Source: an uncultured Candidatus Saccharibacteria bacterium (lineage in GTDB: Bacteria > Patescibacteriota > Minisyncoccia > Phycocordibacterales > PALSA-1337). From it: a stretch of DNA of 60,640 bases. Under the pieces are notes generated by a model. It was given only the letters and a program-made list of their open reading frames with translations, was not told where the DNA came from and did not search any database. A program made the translations under genes and the position numbers. The stretch is taken from the NCBI GenBank assembly GCA_964543075.1, contig CAZIVT010000003.1:1-60640 (forward strand), written 5' to 3'. This document shows positions 57,570-60,640 of this stretch, piece after piece; positions within the stretch are counted from its first letter, which is position 1; each line of letters begins with the position of its first letter.

Positions 57570-58325
57570 ATGAACACACCTACTTCAGTTTCGGTAGAAG
57601 GGTTTACCCTTCAACTCTCTCGGAGAGTCCTCGAACCTGAAGAAGTGATTTCAGGGGAAGAGGCAAAAGCATACGCCAATCGGCGTGACAATAGGACGTT
57701 GAGCTCAAAACTCATCGCCACTGACATCGTGGAGAAGCTCTCGCTCACTCCTGCATCAAACGTTTTGGAAATCGCCTGTGGTCCCGGCCAGCTTGCTTAT
57801 GAGCTTTGGAAAGTCGTAGGTTGCTCGATAACGGCAACCGACGGTAGTCCCGAACTCATTGAGGCGGCTACCGAGCGCTACAGGGAAACTCCGATACGCT
57901 TTGCTACGGAAAATCTGCATAGCCATACTGGAAAAGGGGAATATGATGCACTTGTCTGCAAAGACTCGTTTCATCATTTCTTCAATTCAGAGAAGGCTGT
58001 TACAGAGATGCTCTCGCTCTTGAGGCCGGGCGGTAAAATCTACATCTTTGATTTGTGCAGAAATGCCCGAATCGAGGAAGTGGAGTATCGCTTATCTTCG
58101 ATACAGGCATCACACGAGCAGATGCGTTTCCTCAGGTCTCTGAATGCCGCACTTACGGTTCAGGAATTTGAAGAAGCCTGCGGCACAGCTAAGGTTTCCG
58201 TTTTCTACCCCCTTGATTTCTCGCAAGAGAATCTGAGGGCGCATGAAGCAGAGATTGAAGCTGATGTAGTGAAGGAGTTTAAGCTCTCCTCACTGTTCTC
58301 GGTTTACGTCATTGAAAAAATTTAA
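57570..58325 (+). CDS. Class I SAM-dependent methyltransferase
   Basis: VLEIACGPG, TDGSPELI, YDALVCKDSFHHF. Confidence 0.87.
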   Translation: MNTPTSVSVEGFTLQLSRRVLEPEEVISGEEAKAYANRRDNRTLSSKLIATDIVEKLSLTPASNVLEIACGPGQLAYELWKVVGCSITATDGSPELIEAATERYRETPIRFATENLHSHTGKGEYDALVCKDSFHHFFNSEKAVTEMLSLLRPGGKIYIFDLCRNARIEEVEYRLSSIQASHEQMRFLRSLNAALTVQEFEEACGTAKVSVFYPLDFSQENLRAHEAEIEADVVKEFKLSSLFSVYVIEKI

Positions 58326-58384
58326 CCCCCGCGATCTGAAATATGGTCGCGGGTTTCTGCTTTTGTGATATACTAACGATGTTT

Positions 58385-58422
58385 GTCATTAGAAAACGCC
58401 AACTCGTGTGGCGTTTTCCTTT
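58385..58422 (+). repeat. 38-nt hairpin repeat, copy A
   Basis: GTCATTAGAAAACGCC-N9-GGCGTTTTCCTTT; same arms at 59555-59592. Confidence 0.85.
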
Positions 58423-58461
58423 ATACACGTATTGCTTTTTCAAAATCTATTATATAATTGT

Positions 58462-58795
58462 GGAGTATTCTTATCCTTTCGGAATACGAGAGAGAAAATG
58501 AAAGGGGTCAGCGTTCGTACGCTTTTTGAAAGATTTGATGGCTAGCGTTTTGGGGAAGGCAACTTCCCTAAGACGAAAAACTTGGGGGACTCTGAAAGGA
58601 GAGACTTCCCAGAACGCTGACCATCAAACCTTTCTTAAGCCATACGAATATGGTTTATAGGAGTAACTTAGCTTTAGTCCGTGATTCCAGAAAAGTCTAT
58701 AGTGATCTGAACTTCTACCAACGGAGTCATCTCACCCCGTGACGACCTACACCTAAGTAGGTAAAGGCATTATACAGATGTAAACATAGACGAGT
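58462..58795 (+). ncRNA. Candidate unclassified structured RNA or long 5' leader
   Basis: Many stems with + strand GNRA loops, a 27-bp long-range helix, upstream TATAAT 58453-58458, no ORF of 60 aa or more. Confidence 0.55.
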
Positions 58796-58936
58796 ATGTC
58801 AAAAAGACAATCTCGGCTTGCCGGTCGCGATAAGCTTGGTCAATTCGAGAAGCTCTCGGAGGCCAAGAAGAAGAAAAGCTCGACAGTTGAGCACCTTCCT
58901 CTACCAGGTTATGGTGATGTGAAGAAGGATAAGTAA
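58796..58936 (+). CDS. Small basic 46-aa ORF (below the ORF track cutoff)
   Basis: MSKRQSRLAGRDKLGQFEKLSEAKKKKSSTVEHLPLPGYGDVKKDK*, followed by hairpins. Confidence 0.5.
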   Translation: MSKRQSRLAGRDKLGQFEKLSEAKKKKSSTVEHLPLPGYGDVKKDK

Positions 58937-59139
58937 CCTTCTAGGGGAAATGAAAACCGCCCCTGCAAAGCAAGAACGGTTTTCGATCATATGTAAGTAG
59001 TCAATCTTACAAGCGGGCATCCCGAAAGGGATGTTTTGCTTTCCATAATTATAACTTACAGAATCGATACCTTACCAAAATATTGTGGATAAAGCCAATG
59101 CTGCGATCCTGAATTGCAGCTATTTGCTATAATACGTAT

Positions 59140-59517
59140 ATGTCAAAATATTTTGAGGAGGATATTAAAAATCTTGGACTCAATGAAAAACAGAAAAAAC
59201 TCCTAGACAGGGTTGGAGGGTTAATGGGTGCCGGTACAAGCGAGCATCTTTCGACCGAATCACAAATAATATCTGAAATGAGTTTGGCTAACACTATTGA
59301 GGCATCGGCTCGTGTGCATGGTCAGGCTGTATTGGATGCTACTAGAAACCTATCACTAACGATCGAAAAGCAAGCGGATATCATGGTTAAATCAAATGAG
59401 AAGCTGGCTTCATCAAATGAAAAGTATTCTAGTGCGATGGTAAAGCTTACATAGGCGTTAGTATTTGTTGGTGTAGCTGGAATTGTTGTTCAAATCACAC
59501 AGATTTTTTCAAAGTAG
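59140..59517 (+). pseudogene. Coiled-coil protein with C-terminal TM helix interrupted by an in-frame TAG at 59452
   Basis: ...AMVKLT*ALVFVGVAGIVVQITQIFSK*; extended -10 6 nt before ATG. Confidence 0.6.
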
Positions 59518-59554
59518 GAGGTTGCTTCGATAGTCTAAGTTTTATATAATGAAA

Positions 59555-59592
59555 GTCATTAGAAAACGCCGGCCTGTACGGCGTTTTCCTTT
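59555..59592 (+). repeat. 38-nt hairpin repeat, copy B
   Basis: Arms identical to 58385-58422, different 9-nt loop. Confidence 0.85.
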
Positions 59593-59657
59593 GTCTAAAT
59601 AGAGTTATGCACAGTTATGCACAGGCACTTTACTTTTTGGTTAAAATTTGCTATCTT

Positions 59658-59820
59658 AAAAGTGACCTAAAAAGTCAATTTTCTAAAGCTTGGGGGCCTC
59701 GCAAGAGGTCCCCTTTGCTGTATATTTGTTATATTTTCACACTTGAAACGTCATCAATAATGACTATAAAAGGTCAATATTCTAGGGCTTAGGGGTCTTC
59801 GCAAGAGGATCCTTTTTGCT
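59658..59820 (+). ncRNA. Duplicated two-hairpin RNA motif convergent with and overlapping the NYN gene
   Basis: Two units; GCAA loops at 59701 and 59801; compensatory changes; promoter TTTACT-N17-TATCTT. Confidence 0.6.
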
Positions 59821-60573
59821 TTCCTCAGACAAGGGAGTCATTTCCTTTTTGTAACAGATAAACTCTTTGATCTTTTGTATGTCAAAAATAGTAAGCCCAA
59901 GTATTCTAAGCTCGCTAAGCTCTGTGGCAACTCGACGTGCAGTTGCGAACAGCATAACTTTCTTTTTGTCAGTTAAAAGTTGTCGGATAGGATCTTCAAA
60001 ATCGCTATCGCCACTCCAAAGAATAAAATTATCAATGCCATTTTTGTCATAGTCACGAAGCATATCTCTGCCGATCTCGACGTCGAAATTTGACTTCATG
60101 TCTTCGACATACAAAATGCCTTGCTGGTTCAATAGCTTGAGCTCATTGTTCAGAGCCTCGATGGTTTCGACTTTAAGTTTTGCAAGCAGAGGTTTGCGGA
60201 TGAAATCTTTGAGTAGATCAGGGGAATTGGCTGGAATACTGGAGGCATCGATCGAAAGACGAAGCATTTTGACAGGCTTTGTCTTCACGATATAGCCCAA
60301 TCGTTCTGCTTCCTTGATCATGAGCAATGACTGCTCACTTGTTTTTAGTGTGCCGTGATAGAACTTAATCTCGTTGATCGTGTCGAAAGATTTTAGGAGC
60401 TGTTTGAGACGCTTTAGGTCGATATGCCAGCCAAGTTTTTGAGACCAGGGGCGGACATTGGCGTAGTCAATGTAAATATTTGTCCACTTATCGAAGATGC
60501 TTTCAAGTTCCGCAATTTTCTCCGGATATTGAGCAGCTAATTCTTTTATTCTTTCTGAAACTGGCTTGAACAT
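59782..60573 (-). CDS. NYN domain (LabA/DUF88, PIN-like) ribonuclease
   Basis: IYIDYANV, KSNFDVEIGRDM, ILWSGDSDFEDP acidic catalytic motifs. Confidence 0.88.
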   Translation of the reverse strand: MFKPVSERIKELAAQYPEKIAELESIFDKWTNIYIDYANVRPWSQKLGWHIDLKRLKQLLKSFDTINEIKFYHGTLKTSEQSLLMIKEAERLGYIVKTKPVKMLRLSIDASSIPANSPDLLKDFIRKPLLAKLKVETIEALNNELKLLNQQGILYVEDMKSNFDVEIGRDMLRDYDKNGIDNFILWSGDSDFEDPIRQLLTDKKKVMLFATARRVATELSELRILGLTIFDIQKIKEFICYKKEMTPLSEESKKDPLAKTPKP

Positions 60574-60640
60574 TGCTTGAAATATATGAAAATTCCCCTT
60601 TGAAATGCAATTGCAGTAATATGCGATTGTATGAAAATAC

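What the first reader, a model, noticed from the sequence alone, without database searches (positions are those of the whole stretch)
58991..60573. NYN ribonuclease paired with a convergent, duplicated two-hairpin RNA: candidate RNA-controlled toxin/defence system
Seen: two ~62-nt units at 59658-59719 and 59756-59820 have GCAA loops exactly 100 nt apart. Both fold as hairpin 1 (AAAA-G-TGAC..GTCA-A-TTTT vs AATA-A-TGAC..GTCA-A-TATT, same 1x1 mismatch, compensatory change) and hairpin 2 (basal RGC/GCT stem, U-rich internal loop, 9-10-bp GC stem with different but still-pairing bases, GCAA tetraloop). A promoter TTTACT-N17-TG-c-TATCTT (59629-57; alternative TAAAAT at 59642) starts transcription at unit 1. 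Unit 2 overlaps the last 12 codons of the NYN gene on the other strand. A diverged third unit may lie at 58999-59040 (AGTCAAT..AAGC..GAAA hairpin..TTGCT). Established: NYN is a PIN-like RNase fold, and type III TA systems (ToxIN, CptIN, TenpIN) neutralise an RNase with repeated structured RNAs, but those repeats lie upstream in the same operon. Inference: an undescribed arrangement where a convergent repeated RNA acts as antitoxin, substrate or antisense regulator of NYN.
Basis: partly seen in the sequence, partly recalled or inferred. Interest (0 to 1): 0.87.

Follow-up and report, generated by a model that had tools for sequence, protein, structure and literature searches.

The report
NYN nuclease with partner small RNA
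A predicted RNA-cutting enzyme gene (NYN family) in this ultra-small bacterium is faced tail to tail by a tiny, highly conserved structured RNA gene, here present twice. The same pairing recurs in nearly every related locus examined, so it is most likely an undescribed mobile cassette of a nuclease plus its RNA antidote.

Summary
Units at 59657-59726 and 59755-59827 (+) are two copies of a ~62-nt small-RNA gene. Each has a 5' hairpin, a single-stranded UYUA-NN-GC linker, and a terminator hairpin with a conserved G·U pair.

- **Association with NYN.** The RNA lies convergent to a LabA-like NYN gene, at or over its stop codon. This was seen in 9/9 genome loci, 76/77 assessable metagenome loci, and all 8 NYN-bearing genomes of an unbiased 401-genome sample.
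- **Structure.** 86 distinct sequences give 98% paired cells and compensatory changes at 11 of 15 pairs.
- **Promoter.** A near-consensus TTGACA-N17-TGnTAnAAT promoter precedes the primary unit.
- **Level of conservation.** NYN C-terminal tails read the hairpin in all three frames, so conservation is at the RNA level.
- **Mobility.** The ~1-kb cassette is sporadic (2% of the phylum sample, 3/19 genomes of the genus) and sits in an AT-rich island beside an IS end.
- **Asymmetry.** Three loci keep the RNA with a truncated NYN. No clear case shows the reverse.

The most likely function is a toxin-antitoxin-like module in which the RNA restrains NYN. The tandem duplication is rare (4 loci), unit 2 has no promoter, and "unit 3" is a weak relic. 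The RNA is absent from Rfam and from the searched literature, but this scan has flagged the same class in other genomes.

The parts
59555..59592 (.). A/U-flanked terminator hairpin (GTCATTAGAAAACGCC-N9-GGCGTTTTCCTTT). It marks the left edge of the block shared with the closest relative.
   Evidence: Terminator-like on the + strand. Homology with L131 runs over window 59556-60587. A second copy lies at 58385-58422 (D1).
59605..59623 (+). Two TTATGCACA (DnaA-box-like) motifs just upstream of the sRNA promoter.
   Evidence: The same motif lies upstream of the -35 in many related loci, but it is a genome-wide promoter-proximal motif here (46 copies).
59629..59657 (+). sRNA promoter: -35 TTTACT, 17-nt spacer, extended -10 TGcTATCTT.
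   Evidence: Sequence. It is positionally conserved as TTGACA-N17-TGnTAnAAT in nearly all primary units.
59663..59726 (+). sRNA unit 1, the canonical and probably functional copy. P1 is 59663-59677; the linker is AUUUUCUAAA; the basal GC/GC helix pairs 59688-89 with 59717-18; P2 is 59692-59713 with a GCAA loop and a G·U pair; a U-rich tail follows.
   Evidence: CM 90.3 bits. Fold. Covariation. Identical (0/62 differences) in L131, where the surrounding DNA is 88% identical.
59755..59827 (+). sRNA unit 2, a diverged tandem copy without its own promoter. Its hairpin abuts and overlaps the NYN 3' end.
   Evidence: CM 71.1 bits. Folds only on the + strand. No promoter. 3/65 differences from L131.
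59782..60573 (-). NYN (LabA-like, PF01936) predicted metal-dependent nuclease, 263 aa, with all conserved acidic residues present.
   Evidence: Pfam 56.2 bits against a cutoff of 24.2. Invariant D36, D164, E166, D170, D189, D191. AF2 pLDDT 85.6, and the only significant PDB fold match is 2qip.
60587..60640 (.). End of a multi-copy IS-like repeat inserted 14 nt upstream of the NYN start codon. This is the cause of the contig break.
   Evidence: The same 54-mer ends contigs C12, C26 and C29. Homology with L131 stops exactly at 60587.
58982..59047 (+). 'Unit 3': a weak, promoter-less, 5'-truncated look-alike (3' half of P1, linker, different but pairing P2, UUUGCUUUCC). Probably a relic, or a chance terminator.
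   Evidence: CM 33 bits, E about 1e-3. Alignment row. It lies inside a 1.13-kb segment absent from L131.

Best explanation
The region 59628-60573 is a self-contained, horizontally mobile two-gene cassette. It holds a LabA-like NYN nuclease gene and, convergent to it, a ~62-nt small RNA gene.

The RNA is made constitutively from a near-consensus sigma-70 promoter. It starts at the base of a 5' hairpin and ends at its own terminator hairpin, which sits on the NYN stop codon.

Most likely the RNA is the dedicated antidote (antitoxin-like restrainer) of the nuclease. I favour direct binding of the RNA to the NYN protein as a pseudo-substrate or inhibitor, recognised through three features: the conserved single-stranded UYUA-NN-GC linker, the GC/GC helix with its U-rich internal loop, and the G·U pair in P2. 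The unavoidable 3' antisense overlap with the NYN mRNA could act as a second layer. Loss of the labile RNA (cassette loss, or transcription shut-off during phage infection) would free the nuclease.

In this window the RNA gene is tandemly duplicated. Unit 1 is the functional copy. Unit 2 is a promoter-less diverged copy that still supplies the terminator next to NYN.

Shown: the gene pair, the RNA structure and strand, the promoter, and the co-occurrence, mobility and asymmetry of loss. Inferred: transcription, toxicity, the antidote role and the mode of action.
For: 1. Near-obligate linkage.
- The RNA lies at the NYN 3' end in 9/9 genome loci.
- It does so in 76/77 metagenome loci that have downstream sequence, always on the opposite strand.
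- In an unbiased 401-genome sample, every CM hit with E<1e-6 lies next to NYN or a NYN remnant, and all 8 NYN orthologs have the RNA.

2. A real RNA on the + strand.
- 98% of cells are paired, against 85% in shuffles and 51-70% in slid controls.
- 11/15 pairs show double changes, giving 223 compensatory cells against 61±12 in shuffles.
- A G·U pair is kept in 83/86 sequences. It would be an A·C mismatch on the NYN strand.

3. Sequence constraints beyond what antisense pairing or termination need.
- The single-stranded linker is conserved (U 83/86, A 83/86), the GC/GC helix is invariant, and there is no extended helix to explain this.
- P2 is identical across NYN proteins that are only 54-82% identical.
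- Unit 1 has 0/62 differences from L131, where the surrounding DNA is 88% identical.

4. Conservation is not protein-coding. NYN tails read the hairpin in three frames: AKGTSCEAPKL, KGDLLRGPQALEN and KDPLAKTPKP.

5. The nuclease looks catalytically competent.

6. Accessory and mobile character.
- Present in 2% of sampled genomes across many families and in 3/19 genomes of the genus.
- No conserved neighbour gene.
- AT-rich island: about 41% GC against about 54%.
- An integrase gene lies next to NYN in L131, and an IS end abuts NYN here.

7. Asymmetric decay. The RNA and its promoter are intact while NYN is truncated in L008 (residues 68-256), L009 (210-258) and G115 (226-256). No clear case has intact NYN without the RNA.

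8. Generality. At least 12 of 16 distant NYN paralogs (25-40% identity) also have a convergent consensus promoter plus hairpin RNA at their stop codon, with unrelated RNA sequences.
Against: - There is no expression, toxicity or binding evidence.
- NYN (263 aa, with extra N-terminal helices and an inserted ~60-aa segment) is larger than typical toxins, and no LabA-like NYN has a demonstrated activity (PMC5499597).
- It gives only weak, partial hits to defence-system models (PADLOC PDLC01154 E 2.8e-9 over 85 residues; HEC-09 E 8.8e-6).
- The G·U pair and U-rich features could instead serve to make the terminator unidirectional, which would fit a purely antisense mechanism.
- Loci were mostly retrieved through NYN, so orphan RNAs are under-sampled, apart from the 401-genome CM scan.
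- Phage-borne orphan copies, which would support a defence role, are weak. One is a good hit on a contig whose viral nature I could not confirm (L130, 55 bits). The other is at chance level, in a genuine phage (L146, 36 bits).
Confidence: 0.52

Rival explanations
1. Purely cis-antisense control, type I-like. The sRNA pairs with the complementary 3' end or 3' UTR of the NYN mRNA, and the duplex is cut (for example by RNase III), lowering NYN expression. The RNA does not touch the protein.
For: - The end of the RNA's basal helix lies a median of -1 nt from the NYN stop codon. In 35/90 loci it overlaps the CDS by up to 44 nt, and in 45/90 the gap is under 10 nt, so the transcripts must overlap.
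- No terminator-like site is predicted on the NYN strand in 58300-59782, so NYN transcripts probably read through both RNA genes.
- The conserved G·U (A·C on the other strand) would weaken the hairpin only in the NYN mRNA, which favours read-through.
Against: - Cis-encoded complementarity is automatic. It does not explain the conserved single-stranded UYUA-NN-GC linker, the invariant GC/GC helix, or a P2 sequence that stays identical across divergent NYN genes.
- The overlap affects only the 3' end, after the coding region.
- The sRNA shows no cognate-specific pairing with the NYN 5' region (p = 0.30).
- The RNA is retained where NYN is truncated.
Confidence: 0.2
2. The RNA is a positive partner of NYN rather than an antidote. 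It could be a cofactor, guide or scaffold of a NYN ribonucleoprotein, or its dedicated processing substrate, in defence or RNA metabolism.
For: - Tight co-inheritance and co-diversification of the RNA with NYN subfamilies.
- A hairpin / single-stranded / hairpin layout with a conserved 4-nt single-stranded motif, which could be a recognition or guide segment.
- No function is known for LabA-like NYN proteins (PMC5499597).
Against: - The single-stranded segment is conserved rather than variable, so it is not a programmable guide.
- A cofactor should be lost together with NYN, yet the RNA survives NYN truncation in three loci.
- The sporadic, mobile distribution argues against a housekeeping role.
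Confidence: 0.13
3. There is no specific functional tie. The promoter-hairpin unit would be a transcriptional insulator or (bidirectional) terminator of a mobile cassette, or a DNA-level recombination site, and the 'RNA' would have no function of its own.
For: - P2 scores as an intrinsic terminator on the + strand.
- The unit lies at the cassette edge.
- A P2-like hairpin acts as the apparent terminator after a phage major head gene (L146).
Against: - A plain terminator does not need a near-consensus convergent promoter, a covarying 5' hairpin, a conserved linker or a conserved G·U pair.
- The model finds the element nowhere else in this genome.
- In 401 genomes it finds it only next to NYN.
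- The G·U conservation argues for an RNA-level, not DNA-level, function.
Confidence: 0.1

Closest known systems
Type III toxin-antitoxin / abortive-infection systems (ToxIN, CptIN, TenpIN, AbiQ-antiQ)
   Same: An endoribonuclease-type protein sits beside a small structured RNA that would neutralise it. The modules are compact, sporadic and horizontally mobile, and a phage-defence logic is plausible.
   Different: - The protein has a NYN/PIN-like fold, not the ToxN/AbiQ (Kid/MazF-like) fold.
- The RNA is a single unit (two here) with its own promoter. It is convergent and downstream, not a 2-5.5x tandem repeat array upstream in the same operon.
- No evidence exists for processing by the protein or for a closed heteromeric complex.
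Type I toxin-antitoxin loci with convergent, 3'-overlapping antisense RNA (B. subtilis txpA/RatA, bsrG/SR4; par Fst/RNA II of pAD1)
   Same: The genes are convergent, the sRNA promoter is strong, and the two transcripts necessarily overlap at their 3' ends.
   Different: - The 'toxin' is a 263-aa predicted nuclease, not a small membrane peptide.
- The RNA's sequence and structure are conserved well beyond what cis-complementarity requires.
VapBC and other type II PIN-domain toxin-antitoxin pairs
   Same: A PIN-like metal-dependent nuclease with conserved acidic residues, carried on mobile, sporadically distributed modules.
   Different: There is no protein antitoxin and no conserved neighbouring gene at all. 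The partner is an RNA, and the nuclease belongs to the NYN branch with extra domains.
LabA-like NYN proteins, NYN.COG1432 (PF01936; structure 2qip, VPA0982)
   Same: Pfam and fold membership, and the active-site residues.
   Different: This CPR subfamily has extra N-terminal helices and an insertion of about 60 residues. No RNA partner has been reported for any LabA-like protein, and the family's function is listed as unknown (PMC5499597).

Membership tests
NYN / LabA-like nuclease (PF01936) | Match to the Pfam NYN model above the gathering score | tested here: met
   56.2 bits against a cutoff of 24.2, E 7.4e-15.
NYN / LabA-like nuclease (PF01936) | Conserved acidic metal-binding residues of the PIN-like active site | tested here: met
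   D36, D164, E166, D170, D189 and D191 are invariant in 20 diverse homologs.
NYN / LabA-like nuclease (PF01936) | LabA-like NYN fold | tested here: met
   AF2 model with pLDDT 85.6. The top and only significant PDB match is 2qip, at probability 1.0 and TM 0.75 normalised to the target.
Type III toxin-antitoxin (ToxIN/CptIN/TenpIN) | Toxin of the ToxN/AbiQ, CptN or TenpN family | tested here: not met
   The protein is NYN by Pfam and by fold. There are no PADLOC type III hits.
Type III toxin-antitoxin (ToxIN/CptIN/TenpIN) | Antitoxin is a tandem array of direct repeats upstream of the toxin in the same transcription unit, separated from it by a terminator | tested here: not met
   The RNA is downstream, on the opposite strand, with its own promoter. 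It is single-copy in about 95% of loci.
Type III toxin-antitoxin (ToxIN/CptIN/TenpIN) | Toxin cleaves the repeat RNA into units and is inhibited in an RNA-protein complex | not testable with these tools
   This needs biochemistry.
Type I toxin-antitoxin (3'-overlapping class) | Antisense RNA overlapping the toxin mRNA | tested here: met
   Gene geometry forces a 3' overlap: median -1 nt to the stop codon, with CDS overlap in 35/90 loci. No terminator is predicted on the NYN strand. The transcripts themselves were not observed.
Type I toxin-antitoxin (3'-overlapping class) | Toxin is a small hydrophobic or membrane peptide | tested here: not met
   A 263-aa soluble NYN-fold protein.
Any described RNA family (Rfam 15) | Covariance-model match | tested here: not met
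   No relevant hit at the gathering threshold or at E<=10. Weinberg 2017 does not mention NYN, LabA or DUF88.
Intrinsic (Rho-independent) terminator | GC-rich stem-loop followed by a U tract on the transcribed strand | tested here: met
   Units 1 and 2 are called terminator-like on the + strand only. The tail consensus is N-U-U-U.

The most novel reading that the evidence does not exclude
LabA-like NYN nucleases of CPR bacteria, and of some neighbouring phyla and phages, form a large unrecognised class of RNA-restrained nuclease modules. In each, a single-copy, separately promoted, convergent sRNA plugs the NYN active site as a pseudo-substrate. This would be a repeat-less, type III-like mechanism on a PIN-like fold, and different NYN subfamilies carry their own co-diversified RNAs. 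The modules would act as addiction or abortive-infection devices, and phages could counter them with decoy copies of the RNA. This would give the first function for the LabA-like NYN family.
Probability: 0.3. Interest if true: 0.85.

Novelty: new variant of a known kind. Interest (0 to 1): 0.7.

Why it matters
- LabA-like NYN proteins number in the thousands, and no member has a demonstrated biochemical function. An almost obligate, structurally defined RNA partner gives a direct experimental handle: binding, cleavage and rescue assays.
- If the RNA is an antidote, this adds a new architecture to RNA-based toxin-antitoxin and defence systems: a PIN-like nuclease with a convergent, single-copy structured sRNA. 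It would also reveal a widespread accessory system in CPR bacteria, whose defence and addiction repertoire is poorly known.
- The RNA is a new, well-supported RNA family (86 distinct sequences, strong covariation) suitable for Rfam.
- The caveat is that this window is one more instance, with a rare tandem duplication, of a class this scan has already flagged in other genomes.

Tried and rejected
1. Replication origin or DnaA control. TTATNCACA motifs lie upstream of the sRNA promoter, but the motif is a genome-wide promoter-proximal element (46 copies), and GC skew shows no switch here. This does not mark oriC.

2. Trans pairing of the sRNA with the NYN 5' region. A 9-nt match exists in the window, but cognate duplex energies are no better than non-cognate ones across 78 loci (p = 0.30). 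Many NYN genes also seem to have little or no leader: a -10-like hexamer ends 4-9 nt before the start codon in 34/75 loci, and an SD-like tetramer occurs in only 9/75.

3. The outer AAAA/UUUU helix of hairpin 1 is not conserved.

4. An extended basal helix between the linker and the 3' tail shows no covariation.

5. Rfam gave nothing.

6. A conserved protein partner: the neighbours differ in every locus.

7. Phage-borne orphan RNAs as decoys. Two pattern hits came from 2.9 M viral contigs.
- L130 scores 55 bits and has no NYN, but none of its three ORFs tested matched a PHROG family.
- L146 is a true phage, but its hit (36 bits) is at the chance level for that database size.
- This remains only a lead.

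8. L070 is the one NYN locus without the RNA. Only 126 nt remain downstream, and they are GC-rich foreign-looking sequence. By eye it resembles group II intron domain V, but Rfam did not confirm this. It cannot be assessed and is not a counter-example.

Full report
**What is in the sequence.**
The window is an entire contig (C3) of a 753-kb, 30-contig, 52% GC genome of the Patescibacteria/Saccharibacteria type. Its last ~4.6 kb are AT-rich, about 41% GC against about 54% elsewhere.

The ORF at 59782-60573 (-) is a NYN domain protein, PF01936 at 56.2 bits. On the + strand, running toward its 3' end, lie in order:
- a promoter, TTTACT-N17-TGcTATCTT (59629-59657);
- unit 1 (about 59663-59726);
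- unit 2 (59755-59827), whose hairpin overlaps the NYN stop codon and about 12 codons.

The GCAA loops are 100 nt apart. Both units fold as a small 5' hairpin plus a GC-rich hairpin, with z about -3.8. Unit 2 folds well only on the + strand because of its G·U pairs. No Rfam family matches.

**Is it more than chance?**
- Genome loci. In all nine NYN-homolog loci from species-representative genomes, the same RNA sits convergent at the NYN 3' end behind a TTGACA-N17-TAnnnT promoter.
- Own genome. A covariance model built from 13 units (R1) finds only the three window copies.
- Metagenome loci. Among 80 NYN loci, the model hits 76. Every hit is on the strand opposite NYN, at its stop codon. Three of the four misses are cut by the contig end, and the fourth (L070) has only 126 nt of foreign-looking sequence left.
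- Unbiased sample. In 401 genomes of the phylum, NYN orthologs (E<1e-50) occur in 8 genomes. A refined model (R2) finds the RNA at the NYN 3' end in all 8, and in one further genome (G115) where only the last ~30 codons of NYN survive. No other hit has E<1e-6.

**RNA structure.**
The 94 hits (86 distinct) give 98% canonical pairing. Compensatory double changes occur at 11 of 15 pairs, 223 cells against 61±12 in shuffles. Slid controls reach only 51-70% pairing.

The consensus is: 5' UG-[P1, 4-7 bp, mostly a GNRA-like loop]-CA..A-UYUA-NN-GC-UU-[P2, 9 bp]-UUU-GC-NUUU.

Four features stand out:
- A G·U pair in the middle of P2 is kept in 83/86 sequences. It is meaningful only on the sRNA strand.
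- The 2-bp GC/GC helix never varies.
- The single-stranded UYUA is nearly invariant (U 83/86, A 83/86).
- No extended helix explains that conservation.

It probably lies upstream of the transcription start, because the -10 element ends 6 nt before P1 in the whole family.

**Conservation is at the RNA level.**
After the conserved FICYKKEM end of NYN, the C-terminal tails are variable. They read the hairpin in all three frames, or stop before it. P2 is identical in loci whose NYN proteins are only 54-82% identical. Against the closest relative (L131, 88% nt identity over 1033 nt), unit 1 has 0/62 differences and unit 2 has 3/65.

**Geometry.**
The end of the RNA's basal helix lies a median of -1 nt from the NYN stop codon. 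It overlaps the CDS in 35/90 loci (by up to 44 nt), and the gap is under 10 nt in 45/90. The two transcripts must therefore overlap at their 3' ends. The scan predicts terminators on the + strand only, and none on the NYN strand between 58300 and 59782.

The sRNA shows no cognate-specific complementarity to the NYN 5' region. Many NYN genes seem to have little or no leader.

**The protein.**
All acidic residues of the PIN-like site are invariant: D36, D164, E166, D170, D189 and D191. The AF2 model (pLDDT 85.6) matches only 2qip, the LabA-like NYN structure. It adds N-terminal helices and an insertion of about 60 residues. The PIN-superfamily survey lists this group (NYN.COG1432) as of unknown function (PMC5499597). 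PADLOC gives only weak, partial hits.

**Mobility.**
- The cassette has no conserved neighbour.
- It is present in 2% of sampled genomes scattered over many families, and in 3 of 19 genomes of the same genus.
- Homology with L132 spans exactly from the sRNA promoter to the NYN start codon (59628-60573). Homology with L131 spans 59556-60587.
- L131 has a tyrosine-recombinase gene next to NYN.
- In the window, an IS-like repeat end, shared with the ends of contigs C12, C26 and C29, begins 14 nt upstream of the NYN start codon. This is why the contig stops there.

**Asymmetric decay.**
L008 (NYN residues 68-256 only), L009 (210-258 only) and G115 (226-256 only) keep a perfect RNA gene with its promoter. 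I found no clear case of an intact NYN without the RNA. This is the pattern expected if the RNA is an antidote, although most loci were retrieved through NYN.

**Generality.**
At least 12 of 16 distant NYN paralogs (25-40% identity) from the same genome sample also have a convergent consensus promoter, a small hairpin RNA and a terminator at their stop codon. Their RNA sequences are unrelated. A 51%-identical NYN on an IMG/VR contig (L127) has a diverged version of the present RNA.

**The duplication and 'unit 3'.**
Two tandem units occur only in the window's own subclade: window, L131, L132 and L004/G406. Second units lack the family promoter. In L004 the second unit has the linker of a different RNA subtype, which suggests cassette-level recombination rather than a functional repeat array.

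Unit 3 (58982-59047) scores 33 bits. It lacks the 5' half of P1 and a promoter, and follows another terminator. It lies in a 1.13-kb segment that is absent from L131 and bounded by two copies of a 38-nt terminator element. I regard it as a relic, or as chance.

**Interpretation.**
The best reading (about 0.5) is a toxin-antitoxin-like cassette in which the sRNA restrains the NYN nuclease. Direct protein binding is favoured because the conserved features exceed what antisense pairing or termination require, and the 3' antisense overlap is a possible second layer.

The rivals are:
- a purely antisense mechanism (0.2);
- an RNP cofactor or substrate (0.13);
- an insulator, terminator or DNA-level site (0.1).

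It is not a member of the type III or type I TA families, because defining features were tested and not met, but it may work like them.

No paper in the searchable library links NYN with an RNA antitoxin or partner, and Weinberg 2017 does not mention it.

Earlier AI notes of this scan describe the same class in other genomes. They agree with what I found here, but they are not independent evidence.

Noticed in passing
window 60587-60640 and 1-52; ends of most G000 contigs: Nearly all 30 contigs end in one of about four repeat families. Examples are AGGAGAGATTATTAACTTAACTCAGGTGTTCGGATTCGGGGGTGTGGGTAGG, CGTTTTCATGATTTTTAATCATACAAGCGTTCGGATTCAAAGGTAAATCTACA, and the 54-mer at the window's end. 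The genome is therefore riddled with multi-copy IS-like elements. One of them sits 14 nt upstream of the NYN start codon and might form a hybrid promoter (TTGCAT-18-TATATT).
   Followed up: partly
genome-wide; window 7501, 10145, 32335, 44498, 56003, 59084, 59605, 59615: The DnaA-box-like motif TTATNCACA is strongly over-represented (8 in the window against 0.9 expected; 46 in the genome). It mostly lies just upstream of promoter-like sites, and also upstream of the sRNA promoter in many other CPR loci (as TGTGGATAAC). It looks like a general promoter-proximal element of unknown role. A cluster of three boxes on C15 near 18300 may be the true oriC.
   Followed up: partly
window 58385-58422 and 59555-59592: Two copies of a 38-nt terminator element (GTCATTAGAAAACGCC-N9-GGCGTTTTCCTTT) bracket a 1.13-kb segment that is absent from the closest relative, L131. 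The same element, also in pairs about 1 kb apart, occurs in other genomes of the genus (G406, G411, G418) and in L003.
   Followed up: partly
window 59140-59517: A 104-aa ORF ends at a TAG (59452-59454). In the same frame it is followed by a hydrophobic, TM-like ALVFVGVAGIVVQITQIFSK and then a stop. This could be a split or read-through gene, a pseudogene, or chance.
   Followed up: no
window 58453-58790: A long imperfect hairpin (arms 58514-58554 and 58608-58648, 41 nt, 78% complementary) lies downstream of a TATAAT and upstream of a 46-aa basic ORF (58796-58936). It is a candidate structured RNA and the subject of a separate first-stage note.
   Followed up: no
L030-L046 (distant NYN paralogs from other genomes): Most distant NYN paralogs have their own, unrelated, convergent module of consensus promoter, small hairpin RNA and terminator at the stop codon. 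The NYN-plus-sRNA layout is therefore general across NYN subfamilies.
   Followed up: partly
L146:3595-3667 (-) and L130:679-745 (-): sRNA-like elements without a NYN gene on IMG/VR contigs. In L146 (a genuine phage with terminase, portal and major head genes), a P2-like hairpin with the GCUU...G·U...UUUGC features sits right after the major head gene. L130 has a 55-bit full-length match. These could be decoys, or just terminators.
   Followed up: partly
L070:2750-2876: Downstream of this NYN gene, the RNA is replaced by GC-rich sequence that by eye resembles group II intron domains V/VI (CCGCCGTATGCGG...CGCATGTACGGTGG). Rfam did not confirm this, and the contig ends.
   Followed up: partly
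L131:344-1204: The closest relative of the window's cassette (NYN 97% aa identity) has a Phage_integrase-family gene directly upstream of NYN. The window's genome has only a distant (27% identity) homolog, on C15.
   Followed up: partly
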